From an uncultured Rikenella sp. (GTDB lineage: Bacteria; Bacteroidota; Bacteroidia; Bacteroidales; VadinHA17), in assembly GCA_964627825.1 (NCBI GenBank), contig CAZVLJ010000005.1, positions 2,289-66,288 on the forward strand: 64,000 nucleotides of DNA. The letters run 5' to 3'. The position numbers were made by a program, and so were the translations under genes. Every line of letters starts with the position of its first letter. The stretch's first letter is position 1. This document shows, piece by piece, positions 4,772 through 34,057 of this stretch. The notes below the pieces were generated by a model, which was not told where the DNA came from, did not search any database, and was given only the letters and a program-made list of their open reading frames with translations.

Positions 4772-5296
4772 TCAGGCAGGAAAGCAGATACTGCCAATGG
4801 CTATTTCCTCAGTCTCGCGCAGTGAACGTTCCAGGGAGGCATACTGGCTTCTGTCACCTGTCAGCTCCAGAATGATCAGTCCGGCCGGCTCACCGAAATA
4901 TATCTCATTGACGCCCAGCCTGGTGCGGATAACACACCCGTAAGTGGTCAGCAACGCCTGTACTGCCAGCCCCAGTTCATCACGTTTCGGCACCATGATA
5001 CCCAGTATTGTGATGCCTTCACACTCCACGGGAGCATCGGAGAAGCCGTGGGAGAATACCATTTCCTTAATGAACAGCCCCTCAATACTCTTCAGCTTTG
5101 CAACCAGATCCTCACAGTCGTCAGCCTGACCTGCAAGGTGGATAACCATGAAACCCTCACGGCTGCACAGTTCATCGTTCAGCTCGTGAAATCCAAGTCT
5201 TGTGCTGACCACGGCAGCATGTTCCGAGAGTGCTTTCTGGACCAGTCCTGCCTCCTTGATCCTGTCAGTGATCTTAATGCCTAATACTCTGACCAT
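4772..5296 (-). CDS. Tandem-duplicated TM1266-like putative iron-only hydrogenase system regulator (two ACT/NikR-C-like repeats)
   Basis: 174 aa. The two halves follow the same pattern: VLGIKITDR..AGLVQKALSEHAAVVSTRLGFHE...GFMVIHLAG..EDLVAKLKSIEGLFIKEMVF versus ITILGIMVPKR..LAVQALLTTYGCVIRTRLGVNE...GLIILELTG..ASLERSLRETEEIAIGSICF. It lies 11 nt downstream of hydG. Confidence 0.6.
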   Translation of the reverse strand: MVRVLGIKITDRIKEAGLVQKALSEHAAVVSTRLGFHELNDELCSREGFMVIHLAGQADDCEDLVAKLKSIEGLFIKEMVFSHGFSDAPVECEGITILGIMVPKRDELGLAVQALLTTYGCVIRTRLGVNEIYFGEPAGLIILELTGDRSQYASLERSLRETEEIAIGSICFPA

Positions 5297-5307
5297 GATA
5301 GTATGTT

Positions 5308-6729
5308 TTAATAGTAAAGGTCCCTCTCACCGTTCCTGATACGCTCAATCTTCTTCCTGATACTCTGCTTCATCCCCTCATCGAGGTCGACCATGTTCTT
5401 TTCAATAGCCTTCCATCCCTTCTCAGCAAGTTCAGGTGAGGCGTAATCAACGATATATTCCGAGAGCGTCAGTATGGCGTTGGGGGTACAGTATCTCTTG
5501 ATAAAGCCAGGCACAGAGAACTCCATGAAATGTTCGCCTGTGCGGCCGAGGCGGTAGCATGCAGTGCAGAATGACGGAATATAGTCGTTGTCTATCAGTT
5601 CATTGATGACATCGGCAAGTGACCTTTCATCATTGATCTTGAACTGCTCGCGGTTGAGGTTCTGCTCGGCATTCTTCGATGCGGAGTAACCGCCAAGTTC
5701 CAGTTTTGTTCCGCCGTCTATCTGTGAGACACCAAAGGCCATTGCTTCGGAGCGTACTGCCGGAGCCTCTCTGGCCGTCAGGATGAGTCCGGTATATGGC
5801 ACCGCAAGGCGAAGGATGGCAATCAGCTTCTTGAAATCGTCATCATTCACATAGTACTTCGGGTTCAGGTTCAGCGCCAGGGCGTCCTTAATCCTTGGGA
5901 AGGAAATTGTGTGCGGGCCAACATTATAGCAGGCCTCCAGGTGGTTGGTGTGCCTTACCAGACCCATCACCTCGAACCTCCAGTCATACAGACCGAAGAG
6001 AGCACCAATGCCTACATCATCAATACCTGCCTCCTGGGCCCTGTCGAGAGCTGTCAGCCTCCAGTTGTAGTCTTTCTTTTTACCTCCCAGGTGATACCAT
6101 GTGTAAGCTTCCGGGTCATAGGTCTCCTGGAAGATCTGGTAGGTGCCTATGCCGGCTCTGCCAACCGTGCGGAAACCGTCTATATCCAGCGGAGCAGCAT
6201 TGATGTTCACCCTGCGAATCTCACCACGGTCTTTCTTGATACCGTAGACGAGCTTCACCGTATGAGCTATGTATTCAGGACCATACTCGGGATGTTCACC
6301 ATAAACAAGTATCAGTCTCTTCTGCCCGTTGTCCTCCAGTGCCTCAACCTCTGCTGTTATGTCGGCATCGGAGAGGGTTTTGCGCCTGGCATCCTTATTC
6401 GTAACCCTGAAGCCGCAATACTGGCAGTTATTGACGCATTTGTTCCCTATGTAAAGAGGGGCAAAAAGCACTATCCTGTTGCCATAAACCTTCTTCTTCA
6501 GTTCGCGTGCTCCGGCTTTGATCTCCTCACCCAGGTCTCCTTCGGCATTGATCAGGGCTGCTGTCTCCGCAAGTGTAAGGCGCTCCTTTGAGAGCGATTT
6601 TGCTATCAGCTCCCTTACTCTCACCCTGTCAGCCCTGTTGTTATTGATAAATGACCACAGCTCGGCAGGATCAATGAACGGCTCCATCCGGCGGTCGGGA
6701 ATACTGCATTTTTCTGGATTGAATTTCAT
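5308..6729 (-). CDS. hydG: [FeFe]-hydrogenase H-cluster maturase HydG (radical SAM tyrosine lyase)
   Basis: 473 aa. Radical-SAM motif CVNNCQYCGF and the C-terminal auxiliary-cluster motif CTAC-X22-C (CTACYRLGRTGEHFMEFSVPGFIKRYC), which is characteristic of HydG. Confidence 0.9.
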   Translation of the reverse strand: MKFNPEKCSIPDRRMEPFIDPAELWSFINNNRADRVRVRELIAKSLSKERLTLAETAALINAEGDLGEEIKAGARELKKKVYGNRIVLFAPLYIGNKCVNNCQYCGFRVTNKDARRKTLSDADITAEVEALEDNGQKRLILVYGEHPEYGPEYIAHTVKLVYGIKKDRGEIRRVNINAAPLDIDGFRTVGRAGIGTYQIFQETYDPEAYTWYHLGGKKKDYNWRLTALDRAQEAGIDDVGIGALFGLYDWRFEVMGLVRHTNHLEACYNVGPHTISFPRIKDALALNLNPKYYVNDDDFKKLIAILRLAVPYTGLILTAREAPAVRSEAMAFGVSQIDGGTKLELGGYSASKNAEQNLNREQFKINDERSLADVINELIDNDYIPSFCTACYRLGRTGEHFMEFSVPGFIKRYCTPNAILTLSEYIVDYASPELAEKGWKAIEKNMVDLDEGMKQSIRKKIERIRNGERDLYY

Positions 6730-6806: not shown

Positions 6807-7718
6807 TCAGAAGATAAGCTCCTCCATCTCCCCTGCCCCGGCAATAAGGGCTTTAGCCGGCTCAGCAAACATTCGGCTCGCATCCAGACGTTTATGAAAA
6901 AAGAGAGTCATTCTCTTGCCCGGGATATCACTCTCATAGTTCTCCAGGTGAAGGAAGAGGTCAGGCAACGGTGCCCCGTTGTCAGGGATAAACACCATAC
7001 CCCTTGAGTAGAATGTCTCTGCGGCGCATGATACAGCATACAGGCCTGGTGCAGGCAGGAGCTTGGTGACGTCAGTTACGGGAATGCGTATCATCGGCAC
7101 CTGCGGACTTATGGCCGGATCCTCCTTTACTGCTGTGCCGATGACAAGATAGAAATGGTCAAGATAGGCATTAGCGCGCTGGATGTATCCCTCTGTCAGC
7201 GCCTGCCTTATACGTGTAGAGCTGACGGTCTCATTCTGCACCTCCTGCATGGGTATCTCTTCGGCCTCAAAGCCGTATTTCTCCCTCCAGGCCCACAACG
7301 TACGATAGTCGCCCTGCTGGTTAAACCCGAAGTGATGATTATGACCCACAACTATCACCTTTGCCCCAAGGGTACCGCAGAGAATATCTCTCACGAACTC
7401 CTCGCTGGTGATCCGTGCAAAATGGCGTGTGAACTCAATAATGATGATATTGTCAAGCCCCGCCTTGCGCAGCAGTTCTATCTTCTCCTCCTGTGAACAG
7501 ATGAGCTTAAGTCCCTTGCCGGCCGTCTCGGGATAGAGGACCACCCTGGGATGAGGATGAAACGTTATTAGTACGCTCTCGCCGTTATGCTCGGAGGCAA
7601 GCTTTTTCAGCCTTTTAATGATTGTCCTGTGGCCAATGTGAACGCCGTCAAAAGTACCCGTGGTCACCACGGGAGCCTGTATTACTGATGCCTCCTGAAA
7701 GCTCCTGAAGATTCTCAT
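6807..7718 (-). CDS. ribF: RibF-like FAD synthetase with a divergent riboflavin-kinase domain
   Basis: N-terminal FMN adenylyltransferase motifs are intact: GTFDGVHIGH, ITFHPHPR, VVGHNHHFGF, VSSTRIRQAL. The C-terminal domain keeps the length and GLYAV but lacks the GFPTAN and NIGxRPT motifs. The start codon overlaps the rex stop (TAATG). Confidence 0.75.
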   Translation of the reverse strand: MRIFRSFQEASVIQAPVVTTGTFDGVHIGHRTIIKRLKKLASEHNGESVLITFHPHPRVVLYPETAGKGLKLICSQEEKIELLRKAGLDNIIIIEFTRHFARITSEEFVRDILCGTLGAKVIVVGHNHHFGFNQQGDYRTLWAWREKYGFEAEEIPMQEVQNETVSSTRIRQALTEGYIQRANAYLDHFYLVIGTAVKEDPAISPQVPMIRIPVTDVTKLLPAPGLYAVSCAAETFYSRGMVFIPDNGAPLPDLFLHLENYESDIPGKRMTLFFHKRLDASRMFAEPAKALIAGAGEMEELIF

Positions 7719-8353
7719 TACCCTGCAGGCTGCTGGTTTTCCTTAACGAAGTAGGCTACTTTCTCTATTGAGGTTATCATATCAAACTCCTCAAGGTATA
7801 CGGTATCAGGGACATTCAGCGGAACGGTTGTGAAGTTCATTATACCCCGTATTCCGTTACTTACCAGCAGTGATGCCACAGATACCGCCTGATCAGCGGG
7901 CACGGCCAGAACGGCAACAGAGATGTCAAGCTCCTCCCGCAGGCTCTTCAACTGGTTAATGTTATGGCATCGAACCCCGGCTACAACCTTATCAACTTTC
8001 TGGGGATCAATATCAAAGGCAGCCACCACATTCATGTTGGTACGTTTGCCCTTAAAGTAACCCGTGATAGCCCGTCCCAGGTTACCCATACCCATGATTG
8101 CCACATTCAGTCCGCTGGGTGCATCAATAATAGTTCCGATTGTTTTTATCAGTTCCCTTACGTCATACCCTTTACGCATCACGCTGCCGTAACCTATGAG
8201 CATAAGATCGCGTCTCACCTGTACGGCAGTGATATGCAGCATTGCTGCAAGCTCATGTGAGAACACATAGTTGCGATTGGCAGCCAGGGTAGCGGCAAGG
8301 GCTCTTCTGTACTGGCTTAGCCGTTCAACGGTCTTTCCTGGGAGTGTTTTCAT
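7718..8353 (-). CDS. rex: Redox-sensing transcriptional repressor Rex
   Basis: 211 aa. N-terminal winged-helix region (TVERLSQYRRAL...FSHELAAML..TAVQVRRDLMLIGY), Rossmann motif IMGMGNLGRAITGY, and AAFDIDPQKV, which is typical of Rex. Confidence 0.85.
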   Translation of the reverse strand: MKTLPGKTVERLSQYRRALAATLAANRNYVFSHELAAMLHITAVQVRRDLMLIGYGSVMRKGYDVRELIKTIGTIIDAPSGLNVAIMGMGNLGRAITGYFKGKRTNMNVVAAFDIDPQKVDKVVAGVRCHNINQLKSLREELDISVAVLAVPADQAVSVASLLVSNGIRGIMNFTTVPLNVPDTVYLEEFDMITSIEKVAYFVKENQQPAG

Positions 8354-9498
8354 ATTCCGGTCTTTAAATTGGAAACCTGTGATCTGGGTATTATCACTGT
8401 GAAGACTGATCCTTTGTCAGGGGCACTCTCCACATTAATCACACCATGATATAGATCGACAACCTTTTTGACTATTGAGAGACCCAGACCGCTGCCGCTG
8501 ATGTTACGTGTCTTGTCATTGCGTATCCGTGAGAACTCTTCAAAAAGCATTTCGCGCTCTTCACTGTTCATCCCTATACCTGTGTCAGCCACCGAAAGGG
8601 AGAACTCATCCTCATTGCAGTTGAGGGTTATCATTACCGTACCTCCGGGATTATTGTACTTGACGGCATTGGAAACGAGGTTATTCATGATTATCTCGAA
8701 ATCATTGGGATCTGCCCAGATGGTCTCACATCCATTGATCTCTGTAACAAACCGTATGTCCTTATGTATGGCATAGGGACTGACTGTCACCACAGCCATG
8801 GAGGCCAGCTCCCTGAGGTTAACGTTCTGCATCTTTTCCATCTGCCTCTCAAAACTCACCTTGGTGAAGTCGAGCAGGTCCATGATCAGGTGCCTCATGC
8901 TGTCAATGCGCTGAAGTGATCTCTCAATGGCAGAGGCATACTCGTCAAGTGAATCACCCATCTGTCTCTCCTGCATCATCTTGAGATATCCTTCCACTGC
9001 ATTCAGCGGGGCCTTCAGCTCGTGTGAGAGCACGGAGAGGAACTGGAACCGGACCTTCCTGCCCTCGACCTTTAGTTTGTGGGTTATCCTGCGCAGGTAT
9101 TGCTGCTTGGTGATCTGTTCTATGGAAGATTTCAGCTCCTGCGGCGTGAAGGGTTTGGGAATAAAGTCAATGGCCCCGTCACTGTGCGCTTTTACAGCGA
9201 CATCGATTGAAGCATATGATGTTATCATGGCCACCACAATGTCATAGTTCTTTTTCCTGACATATTCCAGTACCTCAACCCCCTGTATCCCGGGTAGCTT
9301 ATTGTCAAGAAGCAGGATATCAGGCATCTCCCGGTCAATTATCTCTATTCCCTCCTCGCCGGTCGCTGCCTCCAGTATCTGAAACGTATAATCCTCATCC
9401 ATAAAAGGATAGGTGACATGAAAATTGCCCAGTATCCTGGTTACGCCTGACCTGATACCGGGTTCATCATCTACAACCAGTATTTTCAGCTGTGCCAT
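8350..9498 (-). CDS. Hybrid response-regulator receiver / histidine kinase (REC-HisKA-HATPase)
   Basis: REC domain (LVVDDEPGIR...LLLDNKLPG...IPKPF), then H-box LSHELKAPLNAV and the ATPase boxes NAVKYN, DTGIGM, GSGLGLS. A 4-nt ATGA overlap with the rex start. Confidence 0.85.
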   Translation of the reverse strand: MAQLKILVVDDEPGIRSGVTRILGNFHVTYPFMDEDYTFQILEAATGEEGIEIIDREMPDILLLDNKLPGIQGVEVLEYVRKKNYDIVVAMITSYASIDVAVKAHSDGAIDFIPKPFTPQELKSSIEQITKQQYLRRITHKLKVEGRKVRFQFLSVLSHELKAPLNAVEGYLKMMQERQMGDSLDEYASAIERSLQRIDSMRHLIMDLLDFTKVSFERQMEKMQNVNLRELASMAVVTVSPYAIHKDIRFVTEINGCETIWADPNDFEIIMNNLVSNAVKYNNPGGTVMITLNCNEDEFSLSVADTGIGMNSEEREMLFEEFSRIRNDKTRNISGSGLGLSIVKKVVDLYHGVINVESAPDKGSVFTVIIPRSQVSNLKTGI

Positions 9499-9500
9499 TG

Positions 9501-9893
9501 TCAGATTTTTAAGAGTTTTCTTACTTCCTGTTCAAGCTGCTCGGGCCTCACCCCTTTCTCAAGGTAGAGATCAGCCCTGATCCAGTCGCGATCCTGCTCT
9601 CCGCTGAGCCCGAAAGTGATGCCAGTCTCGCGTGAGACTGCCGTAGCTAGTATCACCGGCACGTCGGGATACCTCCTTTTAAGCTTGTAACAGAGGATAA
9701 AGCCGCTGTCATCACTCTCCATCATCAGGTCAAAGACGGCTATGTCAGGCTTCATTTTGGCAATTACCTGTTCTGCTTCAGTCTGGCTCTCCACGGCTAT
9801 CACCTCGAAGCCGGCCTTACGCAGGTAAAAGGCTGTCTGGAAGAGATAATCGGGATCATCATCAACCAGCAGTACGGTATATACTTTGTTCAT
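9501..9893 (-). CDS. Single-domain response regulator (REC only)
   Basis: 130 aa. LLVDDDPD, phospho-acceptor context AVFDLMME, conserved T/K positions (LATAV, YLEKG). No output domain. Confidence 0.85.
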   Translation of the reverse strand: MNKVYTVLLVDDDPDYLFQTAFYLRKAGFEVIAVESQTEAEQVIAKMKPDIAVFDLMMESDDSGFILCYKLKRRYPDVPVILATAVSRETGITFGLSGEQDRDWIRADLYLEKGVRPEQLEQEVRKLLKI

Positions 9894-9940: not shown

Positions 9941-11905
9941 TTATTCAGGTCTCCTCGGGAGAATTATTTTAAATGTGGTGCCGGTGTCCCCCCTGGACGG
10001 ATCACTGTTTGACTCAACGGTTATCTGACCCTTATGCATCTTGACAATACCATAGGTAGTTGCCAGGCCGAGGCCCGTGCCCTTGCCAAGGCCTTTGGTG
10101 GTAAAAAATGGCTCAAAGATTTTTGGTTTGTCCTCATCCCTTATCCCGCTGCCCGTATCCGAAACGACAATTATCACATCGGCCGCTGTATCCTCCAGGG
10201 TAACAGTCAGTGTCCCTCCCTCCGGCATTGCATCAATGGCATTCCGGAAGAGATTGGTTAGAACCTGGGTCATCTGTTCCGAATCAATAGATGCATCAGG
10301 ACTGGTGGTGCGGTCCTCTATTACAGCCTTTACATTGTCAGGAAAGACTACCCCTGCAATGCTGTTTTCGGTAAGCTTCCTGATATCAATGAACTGGTGG
10401 TTCACCTGGTTCTTGCGGGCAAAGTTCAGCAGGCCTCCTACAATCTTCTTACAACGGGCTGCCTGTTCCACAATGAGTTGCAGGTCTTCGCGGACAGGGT
10501 CCTCAGTAGTGCACTCATCAAGCAGAATGTTGCTGTACATAATGACCACACCAAGGGGATTATTCAGCTCATGGGCAATGCCAGCCGACAGCTGTCCCAT
10601 ATGTGCAAGCTTCTCTGATTGTTTGAGAGCATTCTGCATGGTGGTAAGCTTGGCGTTGGAGAGAGCGAGATCCTGAACTGATCTGTGCAGTTTCTCAATT
10701 GTATACGGCAGGCACATCTCTTCCTCGGCCAGTCCCTTGATTATGGCAATGGCATGGTCATAGCATGTTTCATAGCCACATGCGCCGCAGTTAAGATGAT
10801 CCTTCTCCGTCAGCTTGCCCATTGAGGCGAGGACCTGTTTTACCTCCTCACTGGCAGCTGACATCTGGCGCTTATCTTCAGGACGGTAACGGACAGAGAG
10901 GTCGAGCCTGTCATATAACTCAACATTTTTCTTCCACTCCACTGTATTCAGAGAGGCCATTTTATCCTGTGCATAAGCGCTCACCAGGGCTCTCCTGTTG
11001 TACTGTTTGCCGCCCTTGCTCATGCCGGGACCCATGATGCATCCCTCACAGCAGAGCAGCTCAAGATGCTGACCACCTATCATCCCCTGCTCAAACTCTT
11101 TAATTGCTTCCTGGAAATCAGTCCTTCCTTCTGCTGCAATAATATTTCCTGTTATGGCATCATCATTGACCCCGGCAGTCTGTAACAATCCCCTGGTCAC
11201 AGGGAAGATGGCCCCTCTTCCTCCCAGCGGCGGATCGAACTCCGAAGGTTCTACTGAGTCAGGAGTAATGCCGGCTGTCTCAATCATCTCACGAAGCTCA
11301 ATGAACGTTATGGCCACATCCACCTCCGCGTTCTCAGCTTTCTTGGCCACACAGGGACCGACAAAGACCACGGAGAGGTCATCTCCGTATTTCTTCCTCA
11401 TGACCCTGGTCATTGCCACCATTGGTGAGACTACCGGCACAAGGTTCTCTGTCAGGTCAGGATGATAAAATCTTATAAACGATACTATGGCAGGACAATC
11501 TGATGAGATATAGTTCTGTTTTCCGGCCTCGCTGATCAGTTGACGGTAGCGGTGCGCCACCAGGTCAGCCCCGAAGGAGACCTCGGACACATAGTCAAAG
11601 CCAAGTGATCTAACCATGCCTACAACCTTCTGGTAATCAGTTCCTTCATAGAACTCCGCAGGGAAACTGGGTGCAATGATAGCAGCTTTCCTTCCCGGTC
11701 TGGCCAGTACTTTTTTCACCAGGTCCACGGTATTGACAAAGACCTTGGCTCCCTGGCTGCATACCTTGGTGCAGTTACCGCAGGCGATGCACCTCTCGGT
11801 TATCACCTCAGCCTGTCCGCCAACTATCCGTATGGCCCGGGCAGGGCATTCTCTGACGCAGGTATAACATGTACGGCAAAGCTCTTTTATTGTATATACA
11901 AGCAT
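9941..11905 (-). CDS. [FeFe]-hydrogenase-like (H-domain) putative sensor fused to a histidine kinase
   Basis: N-terminal 2x[4Fe-4S] ferredoxin motifs ([23 protein letters not shown]). H-domain with variant motifs [16 protein letters not shown] and [13 protein letters not shown]. Four-Cys motif [14 protein letters not shown]...MCLPY. Then H-box AHELNNPL and ATPase boxes NAIDAM, DTGSGI, GTGLGL. Confidence 0.8.
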
Positions 11906-11917
11906 ACTCTTATTCTG

Positions 11918-13633
11918 TTAAAGCAAAACATCCCTCTTGCTGAAGTGGGTATGAAATACCTCTTTATCAGCGAGCTCAGAACACTGTTCAAATACCCTGC
12001 CATACAGGCCGGCCACTGCAGCAGACTGTTCGGGTGCCCGCACCGCCTCCTGGTCATCTGTCTGCCATATGAACCTTGAGCGCTGTCTTACTGCCTCCCT
12101 TGAACCGGCGGGCAGCATACCGCCGCCATTGACGCAACCGCCGGGGCAGGCCATTACCTCCACGAGGTCATATTTAGCGCCGGCATCAACCATCTGCCTG
12201 ATCTTTTCCAATCCTTTCAGGCCGTCAACCACGGCCACTGAGTAACTCCTCCCGCCAATAGTGACCATGGTCTCGCGGAAGACCCCGGTGTTCCGCAGCT
12301 TCTTCAGTGCAGGCCTGTCGGCCTCTTTCTCTCCCTTTCTTGCTGCCAGTGACCGCAGCACCGACTCGGTGATTCCACCGGCAGATTCAGCAAGGAGTGA
12401 TGCCGAGCTGCGCAGCTCCATGGGCTCGTCTGCGGGCTCGGGATCGATATTCGTAATGTCAATGCCGTAAAGCACAATAAGTCTTGCCAGCTCCCTGACA
12501 GTCAACACCGTATCAATATCACTTATCCCCTTCCTTGTCATGCTGTCTCTGCGGGCCTCGAACTTCATTGCCGTACAGGGAGTCACTGACACAGTGTAGA
12601 CCCGTGATTTCTCATCGGTTACCGGAACAACCGATTTAATTATTGATCCTGATATCTGCTGTGGTGTTTTGAGAGTTGAGAGAAGGGGCAGCAGTTCAGG
12701 TGTGAACTGCTCGCAATATTTGACCCAGGCGGGACAGGCCGAGACTATGAGCGGTCTCTTTTCCTCGTGATCCTCCGCTTTGATGACAGCATCAGTAAGT
12801 TCGGTTATCAGGATATCAGTTCCTGCTCCGGACAGGAATACTTTATCGAAGCCGGCTTTTCTCAATGCTGCATTGAGCAACCTGTCAAAGTCACGGGTGT
12901 ACTTTACGCCCAGCTCCTCAGCAAGGGCATAGGGTACCAGCGGTGAATACTGTATCACCCGTGTCACGTCGGTCCTGCTGAGCTGTTCCTGAACCTCGGA
13001 GAGGTAATGTTTTTCATGAAGTGCGCCCGTGGGACAAACCAGCACGCACTGACCGCAGTGGATGCAGCTTGAAAAGTTGAAATCGCGGTCCATGGCCGGC
13101 CCCACATGGGTGTATCGTCCCCTGCCTATGAAATCTATTGACGTGGCTGTCACCACCTCCTCGCATACCCTGAGGCAGCGGCCACAGAGTATGCATTTGG
13201 AGAGTTCGCGCACTATGGCGGGGCTCGACTGGTCACGGCGGGGTTTAATCTTGCTGCCGCGTATGCGCCGTTCTCTCACCTGCATCTCATCAGAGAGGCG
13301 CTGGAGCTCACAATCGAGGTTGCGTTCACAATAAAGACAATCATCAGGATGGTTTGAGAGCAGCAGCTCAACAATAGTCTTGCGTGCCCTGATGACCCTC
13401 GGGGAGTGGGTTTTTATCTTCATCCACTCCTCCACTGGTGCCGAGCAGGCAGTAACGAGCCTGTCACGTCCCTCCACCTCCACCACGCACATGCGGCAGG
13501 CACCCGTAGGAGTGAACTCTGCCATCCGGCAGAGGGTGGGTATTATTATGCCGTTGCGATTGAGGGCTGAAAGGATGGTCTCACCCTTTTCCGCCCTGAT
13601 GCTCTTGTTGTTTACTTCAATGGTGAACTGCAT
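11918..13633 (-). CDS. hydA: [FeFe]-hydrogenase large subunit HydA (M3 architecture) with non-canonical H-cluster motifs
   Basis: N-terminal 2Fe-2S motif (CRMAEFTPTGACRMC), His-ligated cluster motif HPDDCLYCERNLDC, two 4Fe-4S motifs (CILCGRCLRVC, CIHCGQCVLVCP). H-domain motifs VSACPAW, TPCTAMKFE and EVMACPGGCVNGGG. Directly downstream of NuoF-like and NuoE-like genes. Confidence 0.85.
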   Translation of the reverse strand: MQFTIEVNNKSIRAEKGETILSALNRNGIIIPTLCRMAEFTPTGACRMCVVEVEGRDRLVTACSAPVEEWMKIKTHSPRVIRARKTIVELLLSNHPDDCLYCERNLDCELQRLSDEMQVRERRIRGSKIKPRRDQSSPAIVRELSKCILCGRCLRVCEEVVTATSIDFIGRGRYTHVGPAMDRDFNFSSCIHCGQCVLVCPTGALHEKHYLSEVQEQLSRTDVTRVIQYSPLVPYALAEELGVKYTRDFDRLLNAALRKAGFDKVFLSGAGTDILITELTDAVIKAEDHEEKRPLIVSACPAWVKYCEQFTPELLPLLSTLKTPQQISGSIIKSVVPVTDEKSRVYTVSVTPCTAMKFEARRDSMTRKGISDIDTVLTVRELARLIVLYGIDITNIDPEPADEPMELRSSASLLAESAGGITESVLRSLAARKGEKEADRPALKKLRNTGVFRETMVTIGGRSYSVAVVDGLKGLEKIRQMVDAGAKYDLVEVMACPGGCVNGGGMLPAGSREAVRQRSRFIWQTDDQEAVRAPEQSAAVAGLYGRVFEQCSELADKEVFHTHFSKRDVLL

Positions 13634-13636
13634 GGC

Positions 13637-15586
13637 TTATTTAACTGTAACAGCACTGAACTTGCATACATCATAACAAATACCGCATCCGATGCACTTG
13701 TCCTCAACAATGAAGAAAGGCTGGAGCCTGGTGCCGTAGATGGCATTTACCGGGCATTTAGCAGCACAGACGGTACACCCGGTACACTTCTCCACGTCAA
13801 TGCTGAATGTTCTCAGTCCCCTACACACATTTGCACGGCATCTTCTGTCAAAGATATGCTCCTCAAATTCCTCCCGGTAGTTAGCCAGGGCGCTGATGAA
13901 AGGGTTTGGTGCCGTCTGCCCCAGTCCGCATAGCGAAGTGTCCTTCATCACCGCAGCGATTGTCTCAAGCTGCATCACCCCCTTGAACCTCTCGAGAGTG
14001 GCGTTGGAGTCCTCACTCAGGGGCTTCCTGACTATGTTTTCAAGTATCTCCAGCATTCGTCCCGTTCCTTCGCGGCAGGGGATGCATTTGCCACAGCTCT
14101 CCCTGTGAATGAACGCCATGTAATACCTCACAAAATCAACCAGGCAGGTGGTCTCGTCAATAATGATGAGCCCTCCTGATCCCATGGCTATGCCGTTTTC
14201 GCGCAACACGTCGAAATCGACCGGCAGATCAAGGTTCTTCTCCGTTATGAAGGTGCCCGAGGGACCTCCTATCTGCAGTGTTTTAAATGCTTTCCCATCC
14301 TTTATGCCATCGGTGATGCCTTCGGCGATTGTTCTGAAGGTGGTGCCCATCTCAACCTCAATGAGGCCCGTGAGCCGTCCCCTGCCGCCCAGGGAAAAGA
14401 GCTTGGTGCCCTTGCTTCCTTCGGTGCCCATTCCACGGAACCACTCCGGACCGTGAGACATGATGAGAGGCACATTCATCAGGGTCTCCACGTTGTTGAT
14501 GACAGTGGGTTTGCCAAAGAGGCCGCTGCTGGTGGGGTATGGGGGTTTGAGCTCGGGCATGCCCCGTTTGCCTTCCAGGCTGGCTATCAGCGCTGTCTCC
14601 TCGCCACACACGAATGCTCCTGCTTCCTCACGGATGACTATCTCCAGATTAAAGCCGCTGGAGAGGATATTGTGGCCCGTGATACCATACTCCGCGGCGG
14701 CGGCAAGAGCCTTGCGCAGGCGGGCAAGCGGGTGAGGCGATCCCGCCTTGAGATAGATGATGGCACTTGATGCCCCGATAGCATACGCAGCAATGCATAT
14801 TCCTTCAATAAGCCTGTGCGGGTCGCCTTCAAGGACAGACCTGTCAGCATATGATCCGGGGTCACTCTCCTTTGCGTTGCAGATCAGGTAGCGGTTATCA
14901 GATGCCGAGTTGAGGGCATACTTCCATTTAAGTCCGGTGTTGAAGCCTCCGCCGCTGCGCCCGCGCAGGCCGCTGCGCTCAACAATATCACAGACCTCCT
15001 CATGCGTGTAATTGCGGATCGTCTTGAGAAAGGCCCTGTAACCTCCCCTGGCAATGTACTCTTCAATGCTCTCCGGATCATAGCATCCGCAGTTGCCCAG
15101 CACAACCCTCTTCTGCAGCCTGAAGAAGGGGATCTCATCAATGAAGGGTATATCATGCCAGGCCTCGAAGCCGTAATTGCCTGATTGTCCGACGAGATCC
15201 TCCTCAGGCATGTCATTGTGGAAGACCCCGTTGAGAAGAGGTTCTACCTTGTCCTCAGTTATATTCCTGAAGACAAGCTTGTTCTTGCCCGGCAGGTGAA
15301 CACACATCACCGGCTCGAATGCGGCAGGACCATGACAGCCGGTGAGCACCACCTCACCCCTGATTTCCATTTCTTCAAGGTACTGCGATGTTGCCGCTGC
15401 CGCGGCTGTACTGCCTGCAATTATTGCAGCCGATCCCGTAGCCACATAGATGACAGGTGCGGAAGGTTTGTCACGACGTATCTCCGAGAGCCGCTTCTCC
15501 GTATCAGCCGGCAGAGTGTCAGAAGCATGGAGCAGTACCTCCCTGATAAGGAATTTCTTCAAATCGGTTTCTGTTTTCTGTTTCAT
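13637..15586 (-). CDS. hydB: NuoF-like flavoprotein subunit HydB of a trimeric (bifurcating-type) hydrogenase
   Basis: 649 aa. FMN/NADH motif GRSGGGFNTGLKWKY, 4Fe-4S motif ESCGKCIPCREGT, C-terminal 2x[4Fe-4S] (CTGCTVCAAKCP, CIGCGICYDVC). Confidence 0.85.
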   Translation of the reverse strand: MKQKTETDLKKFLIREVLLHASDTLPADTEKRLSEIRRDKPSAPVIYVATGSAAIIAGSTAAAAATSQYLEEMEIRGEVVLTGCHGPAAFEPVMCVHLPGKNKLVFRNITEDKVEPLLNGVFHNDMPEEDLVGQSGNYGFEAWHDIPFIDEIPFFRLQKRVVLGNCGCYDPESIEEYIARGGYRAFLKTIRNYTHEEVCDIVERSGLRGRSGGGFNTGLKWKYALNSASDNRYLICNAKESDPGSYADRSVLEGDPHRLIEGICIAAYAIGASSAIIYLKAGSPHPLARLRKALAAAAEYGITGHNILSSGFNLEIVIREEAGAFVCGEETALIASLEGKRGMPELKPPYPTSSGLFGKPTVINNVETLMNVPLIMSHGPEWFRGMGTEGSKGTKLFSLGGRGRLTGLIEVEMGTTFRTIAEGITDGIKDGKAFKTLQIGGPSGTFITEKNLDLPVDFDVLRENGIAMGSGGLIIIDETTCLVDFVRYYMAFIHRESCGKCIPCREGTGRMLEILENIVRKPLSEDSNATLERFKGVMQLETIAAVMKDTSLCGLGQTAPNPFISALANYREEFEEHIFDRRCRANVCRGLRTFSIDVEKCTGCTVCAAKCPVNAIYGTRLQPFFIVEDKCIGCGICYDVCKFSAVTVK

Positions 15587-16050
15587 TTCAGATCAGCCAG
15601 GGCTTTGAGTTTTGCAATCATCGCCGGAATATCCTCCGGCCGGATATGAGTAAAGTACTTTTCATTCACATAGATGACAGGTCCTTCATTACACCCTCCC
15701 TGACACGCCGTCAGTTCATAACTGAACCTGCCATCACGGGTAGTCTGCCCCGGCTCAATGCCCAACGCCTCCTTCACGGCAGTAACCACACCCCCGGAAC
15801 CATTTATGAAACAAGTCGTTCCATTACATATACGCAGATGGATCCTGCCTTCAGGAATGAACCTGAAACGGTCATAAAAGGTAGCCAGCCCATAAATCTT
15901 GGTGGTTGACATATGAAGGAACCTGCCAATGCTAACTATAGCATTCTCAGAGAGATATCCCTCTGCCTCCTGTACGTCCTGAAGGATCGGGATAAGGTTT
16001 TCATGACTCCCCTCCCTGTAGCGGGTCAGTATTTCCTCTATCTTGCTCAT
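15583..16050 (-). CDS. hydC: NuoE-like thioredoxin-fold [2Fe-2S] subunit HydC
   Basis: 155 aa. Cys pattern ICNGTTCFINGSGG...CQGGCNEGPV typical of NuoE/HydC. A 4-nt overlap with the hydB start. Confidence 0.85.
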   Translation of the reverse strand: MSKIEEILTRYREGSHENLIPILQDVQEAEGYLSENAIVSIGRFLHMSTTKIYGLATFYDRFRFIPEGRIHLRICNGTTCFINGSGGVVTAVKEALGIEPGQTTRDGRFSYELTACQGGCNEGPVIYVNEKYFTHIRPEDIPAMIAKLKALADLK

Positions 16051-16081: not shown

Positions 16082-16112
16082 CAAAGCTACTTCTTTTTGT
16101 TGTTATTTCAAA
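16082..16112 (-). promoter_or_regulatory. Candidate Bacteroidota-type promoter for the hydCBA operon (-33 TTTG / -7 TAgcTTTG)
   Basis: Read on the minus strand: TTTG (16112..16109), a 19-nt spacer, then TAGCTTTG (16089..16082). This lies about 32 nt upstream of the hydC ATG at 16050. Pattern match only. Confidence 0.4.
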
Positions 16113-16134
16113 AACAATGTTATTTTATTAACAA
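16100..16134. promoter_or_regulatory. Two adjacent Rex-operator-like inverted repeats
   Basis: TTGTTATTTCAAAAACAA (16100..16117) and ATGTTATTTTATTAACAA (16117..16134), compared with the published Rex consensus TTGTTAA-N4-TTAACAA. Box 1 overlaps the predicted -33 element of hydCBA. rex is encoded in the same operon. Confidence 0.45.
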
Positions 16135-16219: not shown

Positions 16220-16465
16220 TTGGGACAATCGCACAGCATAGAGATCTGCCTTGGAAGTTCCTGTTTTTCCAGAGGTAACAGGGAGGCGGTTCAGATAATA
16301 AAGGAGTACCTCAGGAAGAATCACCTGGATGACAAGGTGGTGCTCCGGGGAGCCCGCTGCATGAATCATTGCAGTGAAGGTCCGGTCATCATTATTAACG
16401 GAAATACTTTCTTCAGTACAGGCATTCAGGATATTGAAAAGATACTGGAGAGAGAGCTGGTATGA
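16220..16465 (+). CDS. Small thioredoxin-like [2Fe-2S] ferredoxin (NuoE-fold, HfsA-like)
   Basis: 81 aa. Cys pattern ICLGSSCFSRGN...CMNHCSEGPV. Apparent TTG start at 16220 (no in-frame ATG). Immediately upstream of the H-domain-PAS gene. A TActTTTG -7-like box lies at 16184..16191. Confidence 0.65.
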   Translation: MGQSHSIEICLGSSCFSRGNREAVQIIKEYLRKNHLDDKVVLRGARCMNHCSEGPVIIINGNTFFSTGIQDIEKILERELV

Positions 16466-16488
16466 CATGATACACCAACGCATTGATT

Positions 16489-18366
16489 ATGAAGATCCCC
16501 GATCAGGTAATATACATTAATGAGGATAAGTGTCGCAACTCTTATTCATGTGTCAGGGCGTGCCCTGTAAATGCAATCGAGGTCAAGCCCGAGAGGGCGC
16601 ACCCGGTAATCATTGCCGACAGGTGCATAGGGTGCGGGCTCTGTTTTCTTGCCTGTTCACCAGGGGCCATTGAGTTTATGGATTCGAAGGGCCGTGCAAA
16701 GGAGATACTGCAATCGGGCCGTCCTGCTGCTGCCCTCATTGCCCCCAGCATAGCATCTGAGTTTGATGATATCACTGACTATCGCAAGTTCGTGGCCATG
16801 ATACGCAAGTTGGGATTCACCTATGTGCATGAGGTCTCATTCGGAGTTGACCTGGTAGCCTATGCCTACAAAAAGCTCTTCGAGGAGTCGAGCGGCAAAT
16901 ACTACATCACGGCCAACTGTCCATCCATTGTTGAGATGATAGAGAAGTATCATCCTCACCTGGTGCCTAACATGGCCCCGCTGGTTTCGCCGCTTATAGC
17001 CACGGCCATGGTCACGCGCGATCTTTATGGAGAGGAGGTGGCCAATGTGTTTATCGGGCCATGTATTGATATCAAAGCTGAAGCTGACCTGTACAGTGAC
17101 AGGAACCTGGTTGAAGGGGTTCTGACCTTCATTGAGATTCGCCAGCTCTTTGAAGAAAACAACATCCAGGAAAAGACTGTCAAGATGTCTGAGTTTGATC
17201 CTCCCTTTGGCAATTGGGGAGCACTCTACCCCTACCCTGCAGGCATACTGCAGGCAGCGGGCATCAAGCGTGACCTGGTCTCAAGCCAGGTGATCACCGC
17301 CTCCGGGGCTGAGGATGTGAAGGAGGCAATCAATGATTTTGACCATCACATTGATACAATCAGGCATCACTTTAACCTCTTCTTCTGTCCGGGGTGTATG
17401 CTGGGGCCGGGTATGATCAGGCACGATGAGCGCTACCGGCGCCGGTCACTGGTCAAGCAATACGCTGAGAAACGTGTGGAGGTGCTTGACAAGAAACAGT
17501 GGCAGAAGGATATGGACCGTTGGTCAAAGCTTGATCTCACCCGCACCTTCAGGGCCAATGACCAGCGTATTCCCGAACCAACGCCTGAAGCGATAGGCGA
17601 GGTGCTCAAGATAATTGGCAAGGATAACCGGTCAGAGGAGCTTAACTGCAATGCCTGTGGTTACGGCTCGTGCCGCGAGTTCGCATCAACGGTGGCCAAG
17701 GGGCTTGCGGTGCCGGAGATGTGCCACACCTATAACCTGCGAAACAAGCAGGAGTACATTGAAACACTTCGTCAGACCAACAGGAAGCTTTCAGAGACCA
17801 AGAAAGCCCTGAAGGACTCGGAGGAGCAGGCCATGCGTGAAAAGGATGCGGCACAGGATGCCTCTGACACCATGAACAGCATGCTCAACAAACTGCCCAA
17901 CGGGGTGGTCATCGTTGACAATGAGCTGAAGATCCTTCACTCCAATGAACGTTTTCTGGAGATCATAGGTGAGGATGCCAAGGCCATAGCCGAGATCATT
18001 CCCGGGCTCAGGGGGGCTGACCTGAAGACTCTGATGCCGTTCAACGTTTACAATATATTCTCTTTCGTGCTGCGCGAAAATGAATCAGTCATCAGCAGGG
18101 ATGTGCAGCTTGAGGATCATATGTTCAATGTCTCAATCTTCCCCATACGTCAGAACAGGATTGCCGGGGCAGTGATACGTGACCTGTTCTCACCCGAGGT
18201 GCAGCGTGAGGAGGTGATCACCAGGGTTTCAGACGTGATAGACAAGAACCTTGATATGGTGCAGAAGATAGGATTCCTACTCGGTGAGGGTGCCTCCGAG
18301 ACGGAGAAGATGCTCAACTCTATTGTTGAATCATTCCGGCAGAAGAAAAATGAACCGGGAAAATAA
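16489..18366 (+). CDS. [FeFe]-hydrogenase-like putative sensor with C-terminal PAS domain (HydS/HfsB-like)
   Basis: 2x[4Fe-4S] motifs (CRNSYSCVRACP, CIGCGLCFLAC). H-domain variants TANCPSI, GPCIDIKAE and NLFFCPGCMLGPG. Four-Cys motif LNCNACGYGSCREF...MCHTY. A coiled segment, then a PAS-like region (LPNGVVIVDNELKILHSNERFLEIIG). ATG 16489 preferred over the TTG at 16483. Confidence 0.8.
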   Translation: MKIPDQVIYINEDKCRNSYSCVRACPVNAIEVKPERAHPVIIADRCIGCGLCFLACSPGAIEFMDSKGRAKEILQSGRPAAALIAPSIASEFDDITDYRKFVAMIRKLGFTYVHEVSFGVDLVAYAYKKLFEESSGKYYITANCPSIVEMIEKYHPHLVPNMAPLVSPLIATAMVTRDLYGEEVANVFIGPCIDIKAEADLYSDRNLVEGVLTFIEIRQLFEENNIQEKTVKMSEFDPPFGNWGALYPYPAGILQAAGIKRDLVSSQVITASGAEDVKEAINDFDHHIDTIRHHFNLFFCPGCMLGPGMIRHDERYRRRSLVKQYAEKRVEVLDKKQWQKDMDRWSKLDLTRTFRANDQRIPEPTPEAIGEVLKIIGKDNRSEELNCNACGYGSCREFASTVAKGLAVPEMCHTYNLRNKQEYIETLRQTNRKLSETKKALKDSEEQAMREKDAAQDASDTMNSMLNKLPNGVVIVDNELKILHSNERFLEIIGEDAKAIAEIIPGLRGADLKTLMPFNVYNIFSFVLRENESVISRDVQLEDHMFNVSIFPIRQNRIAGAVIRDLFSPEVQREEVITRVSDVIDKNLDMVQKIGFLLGEGASETEKMLNSIVESFRQKKNEPGK

Positions 18367-33526: not shown

Positions 33527-33889
33527 TCATATAACTGCTACGGCCGCCCTGATCTTAGTGAGAAGATCATCCGGATCAAAGGGTTTGGTCAGATAACCGC
33601 TCACCTTCATCTCGGCAGCCTGACGCTGCATCTGAGGATCACTGAAGGCAGAGACGATGAGAACAGGTGTCTGCCTTTTCAGCTCGGTGCGCAGAAATCT
33701 TATTACCTCCAGTCCGCTGTGGTACGGCATGTGAATATCTATTATTGCAAGGTCAAAATCAGTTTTCCTGAGCGCTTCAATAGCCTTGTTCCCATCACAT
33801 ACCGTTACAGGATCATATCCCTCACGATCAAGCACTACAGACATAGCTCTTGAAGCCAGCTGGTTATCTTCACAAATAAGTATCTTCAT
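33527..33889 (-). CDS. Single-domain response regulator (REC only)
   Basis: 120 aa. ILICEDN, acceptor context AIIDIHMP, SAF and TKPF motifs. First gene of the four-gene operon. Confidence 0.85.
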   Translation of the reverse strand: MKILICEDNQLASRAMSVVLDREGYDPVTVCDGNKAIEALRKTDFDLAIIDIHMPYHSGLEVIRFLRTELKRQTPVLIVSAFSDPQMQRQAAEMKVSGYLTKPFDPDDLLTKIRAAVAVI

Positions 33890-34057
33890 CTTCTGAACAA
33901 TTCTTTCCGCCCGTTCTAATAACGCTATAATCTGACCTTTATTAGATCAGAACGTCAAAAATGACGCTTTTGTATGACGCTCTCCAAAAATGCAGTTTTA
34001 ATTTTGACTTCCGTACAAAAACTGATGATCATCTGCCTTCAGTGCATGACAAACAGA

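What the first reader, a model, noticed from the sequence alone, without database searches (positions are those of the whole stretch)
9941..11905. H-cluster domain fused in one polypeptide to a histidine kinase
Seen: a 654-aa protein with 2x[4Fe-4S] ferredoxin motifs and an H-domain. L1 is SSDCPAI (Asp at the relay position, Ile instead of Trp), L2 is GPCVAKKAE (Gly instead of Met) and L3 is [13 protein letters not shown]. These are followed by the four-Cys motif CGACGYETC...C, an H-box (AHELNNPL) and a complete HATPase. All four H-cluster Cys ligands are retained, so a diiron site is plausible. Established: histidine-kinase-linked sensory hydrogenases have been predicted from genomes but remain essentially uncharacterised biochemically. 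In studied enzymes, Asp at the relay position is the one substitution known to retain proton-transfer function. Inference: this may be a direct H2- or redox-gated kinase feeding the two REC proteins encoded immediately downstream.
Basis: partly seen in the sequence, partly recalled or inferred. Interest (0 to 1): 0.65.

Follow-up and report, generated by a model that had tools for sequence, protein, structure and literature searches.

The report
Hydrogenase-like sensor fused to histidine kinase
This gene encodes a putative hydrogen sensor, a hydrogenase active-site domain fused to a signalling kinase; the class is already catalogued and widespread but has never been tested biochemically, so it is a good experimental model rather than a new discovery.

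Summary
ORF 9941..11905 (-) encodes 654 aa: a 2x[4Fe-4S] domain, an [FeFe]-hydrogenase H-domain, a Cx2Cx4Cx16C cluster domain, HisKA and HATPase_c.

The protein is not rare. The same architecture occurs in more than 120 close protein clusters. Relatives occur in at least 544 species genomes, and the 80 best loci, from about 13 phyla, are almost all full-length.

It nearly always sits in a conserved cassette: hydC-hydB-hydA, then this gene, a stand-alone REC and a REC-kinase, often with rex and the maturase genes.

All residues that hold the diiron subcluster are invariant in 76 orthologues, so a Nar1-like relic is excluded. Asp at the proton-relay position is a Bacteroidota trait; orthologues in other phyla have Thr or Ser. 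The rest of the classical proton pathway is absent.

One continuous predicted helix runs from the fourth Cys of the C-terminal cluster to the phospho-His. Its length is 47 residues in 76 of 78 orthologues, and distant relatives mostly differ by multiples of seven. This points to coiled-coil signal transmission.

The class is already catalogued (HydDB group C, "histidine kinase-linked"; "BfuT" in Bacteroidota). No biochemical study was found. Verdict: a new member of a known, uncharacterised kind, of moderate interest.

The parts
9941..11905 (-). Sensor gene (654 aa): 2x[4Fe-4S] domain, H-domain, Cx2Cx4Cx16C domain, coiled-coil helix, HisKA, HATPase_c.
   Evidence: ORF; Pfam; AF2 model with mean pLDDT 89.5.
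11747..11896 (-). N-terminal 2x[4Fe-4S] ferredoxin-like domain, residues 4-53.
   Evidence: Fer4_10, Fer4 and Fer4_9 matches. C10, C13, C16, C20, C39, C42, C45 and C49 are invariant or nearly invariant in alignment A1.
11027..11686 (-). H-domain, residues 74-293, with the L1, L2 and L3 motifs. H-cluster ligands are C137, C185, C286 and C289. Second-sphere residues are A78-P79-S80, S160-P161, K188, E191 and F234.
   Evidence: Fe_hyd_lg_C, E = 1.3e-45; alignment to CpI, TmHydA and TkHydA; conservation in 76 orthologues; Foldseek top hits are [FeFe] hydrogenases.
11498..11500 (-). Codon for Asp136, which occupies the position of the proton-relay Cys299 of CpI.
   Evidence: Translation; aligned to the Asp of the CpI C299D variant 6glz. 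Across orthologues the position reads D38, T22, S13, A2, N1.
10706..10795 (-). C-terminal cluster motif C373-x2-C376-x4-C381-x16-C398, residues 371-400.
   Evidence: PF04060, E = 4.6e-9. All four Cys are present in 76 of 76 orthologues. The same motif is described for TmHydS and TamHydS (PMC8163306).
10514..10711 (-). One continuous predicted helix, residues 399-464. It starts right after the cluster ligand C398 and contains the phospho-acceptor His445.
   Evidence: DSSP on the AF2 model. The C398-to-His spacing is 47 residues in 76 of 78 orthologues and 40 in the other two. Distant representatives show 54, 40, 33 and 68, which differ by multiples of seven.
10409..10600 (-). HisKA (DHp) domain, residues 436-499, with the H-box AHELNNPL.
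   Evidence: Pfam HisKA, E = 3.2e-13. H445 and N449 are present in 76 of 76 orthologues. The closest solved kinase is ZraS, 9jfj.
9950..10285 (-). HATPase_c catalytic domain, residues 541-652, with N, G1, F and G2 boxes.
   Evidence: Pfam, E = 1.3e-25. N555, D583, G585, G587, G611 and G613 are present in 76 of 76 orthologues.
9501..9893 (-). Stand-alone receiver protein (130 aa); probable first phospho-acceptor or phosphate sink.
   Evidence: Response_reg, E = 8e-16. The acidic pocket DDD, Asp55, Thr and Lys are conserved in 74 orthologues. It is immediately downstream of the sensor in 52 of 73 loci.
8350..9498 (-). REC-HisKA-HATPase_c protein (382 aa): a second kinase whose only input domain is a receiver.
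   Evidence: Pfam. Its receiver Asp and its H, N, G1, F and G2 boxes are conserved in 73 orthologues. It lies within three genes downstream in 68 of 73 loci.
7718..8353 (-). Rex, the NADH/NAD+-sensing repressor. Its start overlaps the stop of the REC-kinase gene by 4 bases.
   Evidence: NCBIfam Rex, 191.5 bits against a cutoff of 126; coordinates. Rex is present in 44 of 78 related loci.
16100..16134 (.). Two tandem Rex-box-like palindromes, TTGTTATTTCAAAAACAA and ATGTTATTTTATTAACAA, in the divergent promoter region upstream of hydC.
   Evidence: A tandem pair 17 bp apart is conserved upstream of hydC in most Bacteroidota loci that carry rex, and absent in those lacking rex. Density is 2.4 per kb upstream against 0.13 per kb in the background.
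11918..16050 (-). hydC (NuoE-like, 15583..16050), hydB (NuoF-like, 13637..15586) and hydA (11918..13633). This trimeric bifurcating-type hydrogenase is presumably what the sensor reports on.
   Evidence: Pfam and NCBIfam; closest solved structure is T. kivui HydA1, E = 3.5e-120. HydA lies within two genes upstream of the sensor in 65 of 73 loci.
16220..19564 (+). Divergent second sensory module: a small [2Fe-2S] thioredoxin-like protein (16220..16465), an H-domain-FeS-PAS paralogue (16483..18366) and a SpoIIE/PP2C phosphatase (about 18350..19564).
   Evidence: Pfam. The same layout is present in 16-18 related Bacteroidota loci.
4772..6729 (-). hydG (5308..6729) and a TM1266-like protein (4772..5296), at the tail of the same gene string. 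hydE lies at 944..2032 (+).
   Evidence: TIGR03955 HydG, 477 bits; TM1266/CPF_0552 family; radical SAM protein of 362 aa.

Best explanation
This is a cytoplasmic, group C-type "sensory" [FeFe]-hydrogenase whose usual PAS output has been replaced by a directly fused histidine kinase of the NtrB/ZraS/AtoS type.

Shown by sequence:
- It has everything needed to bind a complete H-cluster, two N-terminal [4Fe-4S] clusters and one C-terminal [4Fe-4S] cluster.
- It has a catalytically complete kinase.
- It is co-transcribed with the hydCBA hydrogenase, two receiver proteins, rex and the maturase genes.

Inferred mechanism:
1. H2 is split at the H-cluster. Gly replaces Met353, Leu replaces Met497 and the group A proton pathway is missing.
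2. As in TmHydS and TamHydS, turnover is therefore slow and a reduced H-cluster state persists.
3. The polar residue at position 299 (Asp here) accepts or positions the proton from the adt amine.
4. The resulting conformational or redox change passes through the C-terminal cluster domain into a rigid, heptad-phased coiled-coil helix. That helix begins at cluster ligand Cys398 and carries His445.
5. This shifts the kinase/phosphatase balance of the dimer.
6. Phosphate then goes to the stand-alone REC and to the receiver of the REC-kinase. The REC-kinase relays to a response regulator that is not linked in this genome.

Together with Rex, which probably binds the tandem boxes upstream of hydC, this would set hydrogenase expression according to both H2 and NADH/NAD+. 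Whether H2 switches the kinase on or off is not known.
For: - Domain architecture and motifs.
- Diiron-specific residues are invariant in 76 species-level orthologues: K358, E361, A230-P231, S323-P324 and G422, with S232 in 75 of 76. So are the four Cys ligands.
- Fold and sequence neighbours are true hydrogenases.
- The checked H-, N-, G1- and G2-box residues of the kinase are invariant. The closest kinase is ZraS/AtoS.
- A continuous helix spans residues 399-464.
- The Cys398-to-His445 spacing is 47 residues in 76 of 78 orthologues, and other lengths mostly differ by multiples of seven.
- The cassette hydCBA / sensor / REC / REC-kinase is conserved across about 13 phyla.
- The receivers keep all phospho-acceptor residues.
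- hydG and hydE are in the window.
- Rex boxes correlate with the presence of rex.
- Published behaviour of TmHydS and TamHydS: slow turnover, a stabilised Hred state and H2-induced secondary-structure change (PMC8163306; PMC13104023).
Against: - No experiment exists for any member; nothing was found in the searchable literature.
- In TamHydS the C-terminal cluster is not reduced under H2 (PMC13104023). A purely redox relay through that cluster is therefore doubtful, and the coupling may be only conformational.
- No DNA-binding response regulator is encoded in the window, so the link to transcription is conjecture.
- The relay position varies in the wider family, so the specific role of Asp136 is uncertain.
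- The AF2 model is a monomer without cofactors.
Confidence: 0.6

Rival explanations
1. It is a redox sensor rather than an H2 sensor. The three accessory [4Fe-4S] clusters, or the H-domain [4Fe-4S] alone, equilibrate with ferredoxin or with the HydABC complex. The kinase reads the reduction state of the electron pool, and H2 chemistry is irrelevant or secondary.
For: There are three accessory clusters, and one of them is wired directly to the signalling helix. The gene is co-located with rex, another redox sensor. In TamHydS the C-terminal cluster does not respond to H2 but can be photoreduced (PMC13104023).
Against: Residues whose only known role is to hold the diiron subcluster and its CN ligands are invariant in 76 of 76 orthologues: K358, E361, A230-P231 and S323-P324, with S232 in 75 of 76. 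This is hard to explain without a [2Fe] site. The maturase genes hydG and hydE sit in the same locus.
Confidence: 0.2
2. It is a stoichiometric accessory subunit ("BfuT") docked on the HydABC complex. There it reports or tunes the state of the complex after translation. The kinase and receivers would act on enzyme activity or assembly rather than on transcription.
For: The gene sits directly after hydA in 65 of 73 loci. The Hydrogenedentota study names it as a T subunit of the BfuABC clusters (PMC11406978). No DNA-binding regulator is linked in most loci.
Against: There is no structural or biochemical evidence for a complex. Solved HydABC complexes lack such a subunit. Some loci carry the sensor cassette without an adjacent hydABC, for example L053, L066, L077 and L079, although several of those contigs are short.
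Confidence: 0.12
3. It is a degenerate, Nar1/NARF-like H-domain that binds only FeS clusters and has no diiron site, attached to a kinase that senses something else.
For: Group C proteins from Hydrogenedentota were reported to lack recognisable P1-P3 motifs (PMC11406978). Here Met353, Met497 and Cys299 all deviate from group A.
Against: All four ligands and the CN-binding Lys358 are invariant. The best family and fold matches are hydrogenases. The protein has the N-terminal 2x[4Fe-4S] domain typical of hydrogenases. The same Gly353 deviation occurs in TmHydS, which does bind an H-cluster (PMC8163306).
Confidence: 0.05

Closest known systems
HydDB [FeFe] group C putative sensory hydrogenases, subgroup C1 "histidine kinase-linked (putative)" (Sondergaard, Pedersen and Greening 2016, PMC5037454). 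Also the "BfuT" genes with a His-kinase domain in Hydrogenedentota, Calditrichota and Bacteroidota (PMC11406978), and the C1 gene next to hnd in Petrimonas mucosa (PMC7768429).
   Same: An H-domain with N-terminal 2x[4Fe-4S] and a C-terminal four-Cys motif, tied to a histidine kinase. It is encoded beside a trimeric bifurcating hydrogenase. The arrangement of two sensor genes flanking hydCBA is described for Bacteroidota.
   Different: Nothing essential. I could not run the HydDB classifier, so assignment to C1 or C3 is open; the Caldithrix His-kinase type is filed under C3 in PMC11406978. This analysis adds the conserved REC / REC-kinase cassette, the fixed helical linker and the D/T/S pattern at position 299.
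TmHydS, the Thermotoga maritima group C (M2f) sensory [FeFe] hydrogenase.
   Same: The 2x[4Fe-4S] / H-domain / Cx2Cx4Cx16C layout. Met353 is replaced by Gly. There is no Cys at position 299 and the group A proton pathway is missing.
   Different: TmHydS carries a PAS domain and no kinase, has Ala at position 299 and Ser at position 497. The protein here has a direct coiled-coil link to HisKA-HATPase, Asp at 299 and Leu at 497.
TamHydS, the Thermoanaerobacter mathranii group D (M2e) putative sensor.
   Same: No PAS domain. Leu at position 497. A C-terminal [4Fe-4S] cluster. Encoded next to a bifurcating hydrogenase, with a separate histidine kinase-like ATPase gene nearby.
   Different: Group D markers are absent here. 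Position 353 is Gly rather than Ser/Thr. The position of TamHydS Glu252 (CpI V423) is Leu240, so the group D proton pathway is missing. The kinase is fused rather than separate.
HoxBC-HoxJ-HoxA, the regulatory [NiFe] hydrogenase and histidine kinase system of Cupriavidus necator (HydDB [NiFe] group 2b).
   Same: The logic is the same: a slow, sensor-grade hydrogenase controls a histidine kinase that governs hydrogenase expression (otherwise my own knowledge).
   Different: The metal site and fold are unrelated. Sensor and kinase are separate proteins linked through a PAS domain. The response regulator HoxA is known.

Membership tests
[FeFe] hydrogenase H-domain able to bind a full H-cluster | Four Cys ligands (CpI C300, C355, C499, C503). 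| tested here: met
   C137, C185, C286 and C289 align to the ligands and are present in 76 of 76 orthologues.
[FeFe] hydrogenase H-domain able to bind a full H-cluster | Second-sphere residues that anchor the [2Fe] subcluster: K358, E361, A230-P231-S232, S323-P324 and F417. | tested here: met
   K188, E191, A78-P79-S80, S160-P161 and F234 occupy these positions. They are invariant or nearly so; S232 is kept in 75 of 76, and F417 reads F70/Y6.
[FeFe] hydrogenase H-domain able to bind a full H-cluster | Actual incorporation of the diiron cofactor (FTIR or EPR evidence). | not testable with these tools
   This needs purified protein. Only indirect support is available: hydG and hydE are in the window.
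Prototypical group A [FeFe] hydrogenase | Proton pathway C299-E279-S319-E282-R286, plus M353 and M497. | tested here: not met
   Position 299 is Asp, E279 falls in a gap, E282 aligns to Arg119 (variable), R286 is Leu and S319 is Val or Ala. M353 is Gly and M497 is Leu.
Group C (M2f-like) putative sensory [FeFe] hydrogenase | 2x[4Fe-4S] N-terminus, H-domain, C-terminal Cx2Cx4Cx16C motif, followed by a signalling domain. | tested here: met
   Pfam layout. The motif spacing of 16 holds in all 78 orthologues. The signalling domain is HisKA-HATPase rather than PAS.
Group C (M2f-like) putative sensory [FeFe] hydrogenase | Phylogenetic placement within HydDB group C, and the subgroup (C1 or C3). | not testable with these tools
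Literature files equivalent Bacteroidales and Caldithrix proteins under C1 or C3.
Group D (M2e) putative sensory [FeFe] hydrogenase | Ser/Thr at position 353, and the Glu252-Glu289 proton path (Glu at CpI position 423). | tested here: not met
   Gly183 is present in 76 of 76 orthologues. Leu, Met or Ile occupy the V423 position. Criteria are taken from PMC8163306 and PMC10407848.
Nar1/NARF-like non-hydrogenase H-domain proteins | Loss of the [2Fe]-anchoring residues, with closest homology to Nar1 rather than to hydrogenases. | tested here: not met
   The anchoring residues are kept. The top NCBIfam hit for the H-domain is TIGR04105, monomeric [FeFe] hydrogenase. The top PDB sequence and fold hits are hydrogenases.
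HisKA-type sensor histidine kinase | H, N, G1, F and G2 boxes, with a DHp plus CA fold. | tested here: met
   Pfam. ZraS 9jfj matches with E = 1.8e-33 and TM 0.79 on the target. The checked H-, N-, G1- and G2-box residues are present in 76 of 76 orthologues.
HisKA-type sensor histidine kinase | Demonstrated autophosphorylation and transfer to a cognate receiver. | not testable with these tools
   Only synteny with two receivers that have intact acceptor sites is available.

The most novel reading that the evidence does not exclude
This would be a one-polypeptide H2-gated histidine kinase. The fourth ligand of a [4Fe-4S] cluster sits at the first turn of a heptad-locked coiled coil that carries the phospho-His, so H2 binding at the H-cluster is converted directly into a measurable phosphorylation signal. 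In the Bacteroidota version an Asp at the relay position makes the sensor kinetically distinct from the Thr/Ser versions of other phyla. If so, it would give the first direct biochemical readout of signalling by any sensory [FeFe] hydrogenase, and would define a three-protein relay (sensor kinase, REC, REC-kinase) that works alongside Rex.
Probability: 0.5. Interest if true: 0.65.

Novelty: new member of a known kind. Interest (0 to 1): 0.4.

Why it matters
How sensory [FeFe] hydrogenases pass on their signal is still open. As of April 2026 only TmHydS and TamHydS had been characterised. The partners of TamHydS are unknown, and the idea that its C-terminal cluster relays redox state was challenged (PMC13104023).

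A protein in which the H-domain is fused to a kinase gives an output that can be measured directly (autophosphorylation), with defined candidate partners encoded next door. The family is widespread in fermenters from anaerobic digesters, sediments and guts, where H2 partial pressure controls fermentation balance and syntrophy.

The value lies in having a tractable model and a conserved regulatory cassette. It does not lie in a new kind of system.

Tried and rejected
- Nar1/NARF-like relic: rejected, because the [2Fe]-anchoring residues are invariant and the nearest relatives are hydrogenases.
- Group D (TamHydS-type) membership: rejected (Gly353, Leu at position 423).
- Asp136 as part of an intact group A proton pathway: rejected, because the other pathway residues are absent.
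- Asp136 as a family-defining residue: rejected, because it is specific to Bacteroidota.
- First Rex-box search: I used the wrong spacer (N6) and it gave only chance-level hits. The classical TTGTGAAN4TTCACAA pattern was also at chance level. Only the TTGTTAAN4TTAACAA form gave the conserved tandem sites.
- Linked DNA-binding response regulator: searched for and not found in the window. The only other receiver, at about 33530..33910, lies in an unrelated exopolysaccharide-type gene cluster.
- NCBIfam has no model for the fused protein.
- The Greening 2016 ISME J paper could not be read because it is not held in the library.
- My first P2 regular expression had the wrong spacing and returned nothing; this was fixed.
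Full report
**Observation**

The minus-strand ORF 9941..11905 encodes 654 aa. Pfam finds the following:
- a 2x[4Fe-4S] ferredoxin-like domain (residues 4-53);
- the [FeFe]-hydrogenase H-domain Fe_hyd_lg_C (74-293, E = 1.3e-45);
- the "putative Fe-S cluster" domain PF04060 (371-400);
- HisKA (436-499);
- HATPase_c (541-652).

Alignment to solved hydrogenases fixes the numbering:
- Asp136 is CpI position 299. The best CpI match is the C299D variant 6glz, which reads TSDCPGW.
- Cys137 is C300, Gly183 is M353, Cys185 is C355, Lys188 is K358 and Glu191 is E361.
- Leu284 is M497, Cys286 is C499 and Cys289 is C503.

The only correction concerns the second downstream "REC protein" (8350..9498). It is a REC-HisKA-HATPase kinase.

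**How common it is**

The identical architecture occurs in more than 120 protein clusters at 82-100% identity. Most come from Bacteroidales metagenome bins, and public annotation already reads them as hydrogenase-like protein plus histidine kinase. The exact protein is found on contigs from several metagenome samples, one of them a biogas fermenter.

At the 50%-identity representative level, about 45 distinct clusters cover the whole length.

The 80 best loci are almost all full-length. They come from Bacteroidota, Hydrogenedentota, Myxococcota, Planctomycetota, Calditrichota, Verrucomicrobiota, Acidobacteriota, Desulfobacterota, Fibrobacterota, Elusimicrobiota, Melainabacteria, Thermoleophilia and Spirochaetota.

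**Is the H-domain a real H-cluster site?**

In 76 species-level orthologues, conservation is as follows:

| CpI position | Role | Conservation in 76 orthologues |
|---|---|---|
| C300, C355, C499, C503 | H-cluster ligands | 76 of 76 |
| A230, P231, S323, P324, K358, E361, G422 | hold the diiron subcluster | 76 of 76 |
| S232 | holds the diiron subcluster | 75 of 76 |
| F417 | second sphere | F70 / Y6 |
| M353 | deviates from group A | Gly, 76 of 76 |
| M497 | deviates from group A | Leu, 75 of 76 |
| Q325 | deviates from group A | Met, 74 of 76 |

The AF2 model is confident, with mean pLDDT 89.5. Its best structural matches are true hydrogenases over about 430 columns: CbA5H, T. kivui HydA1, DdH, TmHydA and CpI. 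The kinase half matches ZraS. hydG and hydE are in the window.

**The Asp at the relay position**

The literature agrees that Asp is the one tolerated substitution of Cys299 in group A enzymes. It also reports that this position is variable in group C: Ala about 43%, Cys 17%, Pro 10% and Ser 10% (PMC10055695).

In this orthologous group Asp is found in all 38 Bacteroidota-type loci. Other phyla have Thr (22), Ser (13), Ala (2) or Asn (1). More distant kinase-fused representatives show N, T, A, P, S, H, W, F and L.

The other members of the group A proton pathway are not kept. E279 falls in an alignment gap, the E282 position is variable, R286 is Leu and S319 is Ala or Val. The group D alternative path is also absent, since Leu occupies the TamHydS Glu252 position.

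A hydrogen-bonding side chain next to the adt amine thus seems to be favoured (D, T or S in 73 of 76). A fast proton wire is not present. This fits a slow, sensor-grade site like TmHydS and TamHydS.

**Coupling to the kinase**

The model shows one continuous helix from residue 399 to 464. It starts immediately after Cys398, the fourth ligand of the Cx2Cx4Cx16C cluster, and contains the phospho-acceptor His445.

The number of residues from that Cys to the His is 47 in 76 of 78 orthologues and 40 in the other two. In distant representatives it is 47, 54, 40, 33 or 68, which differ by multiples of seven, with only two exceptions. This is the signature of a register-sensitive coiled-coil signalling helix.

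There is no PAS or HAMP domain in between. The checked H-, N-, G1- and G2-box residues of the kinase are invariant. The closest named kinases are AtoS, ZraS and FixL.

**Genomic context**

The gene is the fourth in a tightly packed string: hydC, hydB, hydA, sensor kinase, REC, REC-kinase, rex, ribF, hydG and a TM1266-like gene. Several junctions overlap or are only 1-12 bases apart.

Across 78 species loci:

| Neighbour | Frequency |
|---|---|
| REC-kinase within three genes downstream | 68 of 73 evaluable |
| Stand-alone REC immediately downstream | 52 of 73 |
| Stand-alone REC immediately upstream | 8 of 73 |
| hydA within two genes upstream | 65 of 73 |
| rex in the locus | 44 of 78 |

Both receiver families keep all phospho-acceptor residues, and the second kinase keeps all of its boxes.

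No DNA-binding response regulator is encoded in the window, so the final output is unknown.

Upstream of hydC lie two tandem Rex-box-like palindromes (16100..16134). An equivalent tandem pair is conserved upstream of hydC in most Bacteroidota loci that carry rex. It is absent in Bacteroidota loci without rex, which instead carry a NarL-type regulator and a 173-aa receiver upstream of hydC.

**Comparison with what is known**

- HydDB lists [FeFe] group C1 as "histidine kinase-linked (putative)", with an undetermined role (PMC5037454).
- A C1 gene next to the hnd genes was noted in the biogas Bacteroidales Petrimonas mucosa (PMC7768429).
- The Hydrogenedentota study describes "BfuT" sensor genes with PAS or His-kinase domains. 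It notes that three Bacteroidota genomes carry two such genes flanking the hydrogenase genes, which is exactly the layout seen here (PMC11406978).
- I found no biochemical study of a kinase-fused member.
- The field still regards the signalling mechanism and the partners of sensory [FeFe] hydrogenases as unknown (PMC13104023).

**Verdict**

This is a real, well-conserved feature and a new member of a known but uncharacterised kind. The weight placed on Asp136 is not justified by comparative data, and the architecture itself is not new.

Interest is moderate. The protein is an attractive experimental handle on an open question, not a surprise.

Noticed in passing
window 11918..13633 (-), hydA: The presumed catalytic HydA has a non-canonical H-cluster pocket. 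TSCCPxW is replaced by VSACPAW, so C299 is Ala. MPCxxKKFE is replaced by TPCTAMKFE, so M353 is Thr and the CN-binding K358 is Met. All four Cys ligands are kept. The same variant (SACPAW plus TPCxAMKFE) is shared by about 15 closely related Bacteroidales species, while other lineages are canonical. Of the three H-domain proteins at this locus, only the kinase-fused one keeps K358.
   Followed up: partly
window 16220..19564 (+): A second sensory module is transcribed divergently: a small [2Fe-2S] thioredoxin-like protein, an H-domain-FeS-PAS paralogue (L1 ANCPSI, L2 GPCIDIKAE, so K358 is lost and Asn sits at position 299) and a SpoIIE/PP2C phosphatase. Two different putative H2 sensors therefore flank one hydrogenase operon. 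The arrangement is shared by 16-18 related Bacteroidota loci and was noted as unexplained in PMC11406978.
   Followed up: partly
window 16100..16134: Tandem Rex-box-like palindromes of the TTGTTAAN4TTAACAA type lie upstream of hydC. A tandem pair 17 bp apart is conserved in most related loci that encode Rex, and absent in Bacteroidota loci without rex.
   Followed up: yes
loci L019, L029, L034-L040, L043, L082 (upstream of hydC): Bacteroidota relatives that lack rex carry a NarL/LuxR-type response regulator (about 212 aa) and a 173-aa receiver protein upstream of hydC instead. These are candidates for the missing DNA-binding output of the relay in those genomes.
   Followed up: partly
loci L041-L075 (hydA genes) and PDB 7q4v: Many HydA partners outside Bacteroidota read TSCSPxW, with Ser at the position of the cluster ligand C300 (26 of the loci). 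Acetobacterium woodii HydA1 shows the same in the PDB alignment. I did not resolve how the [4Fe-4S] subcluster of the H-cluster is ligated in these proteins.
   Followed up: no
window 11039..11062 (-), L3 motif of the sensor: The two L3 cysteines are spaced CxGC (C286-E-G-C289), one residue shorter than the group A spacing CxxGC. The preceding Cys285 is variable (C58, A9, S7, F2), so it is not a ligand. The PAS paralogue has the same short spacing (FCPGC).
   Followed up: partly
window 33530..33910 (-): Another stand-alone receiver protein (Response_reg, E = 3.7e-26) sits in a gene cluster with a YaiO beta-barrel/TPR protein, HEAT-repeat proteins and a possible glycosyltransferase (not tested). 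It is probably unrelated to the hydrogenase relay.
   Followed up: no
window 4772..5296 (-): The protein downstream of hydG is a 174-aa tandem duplication of the TM1266/CPF_0552 "iron-only hydrogenase system regulator" fold. Some related loci have two separate 85-aa genes instead (L020, L031).
   Followed up: no
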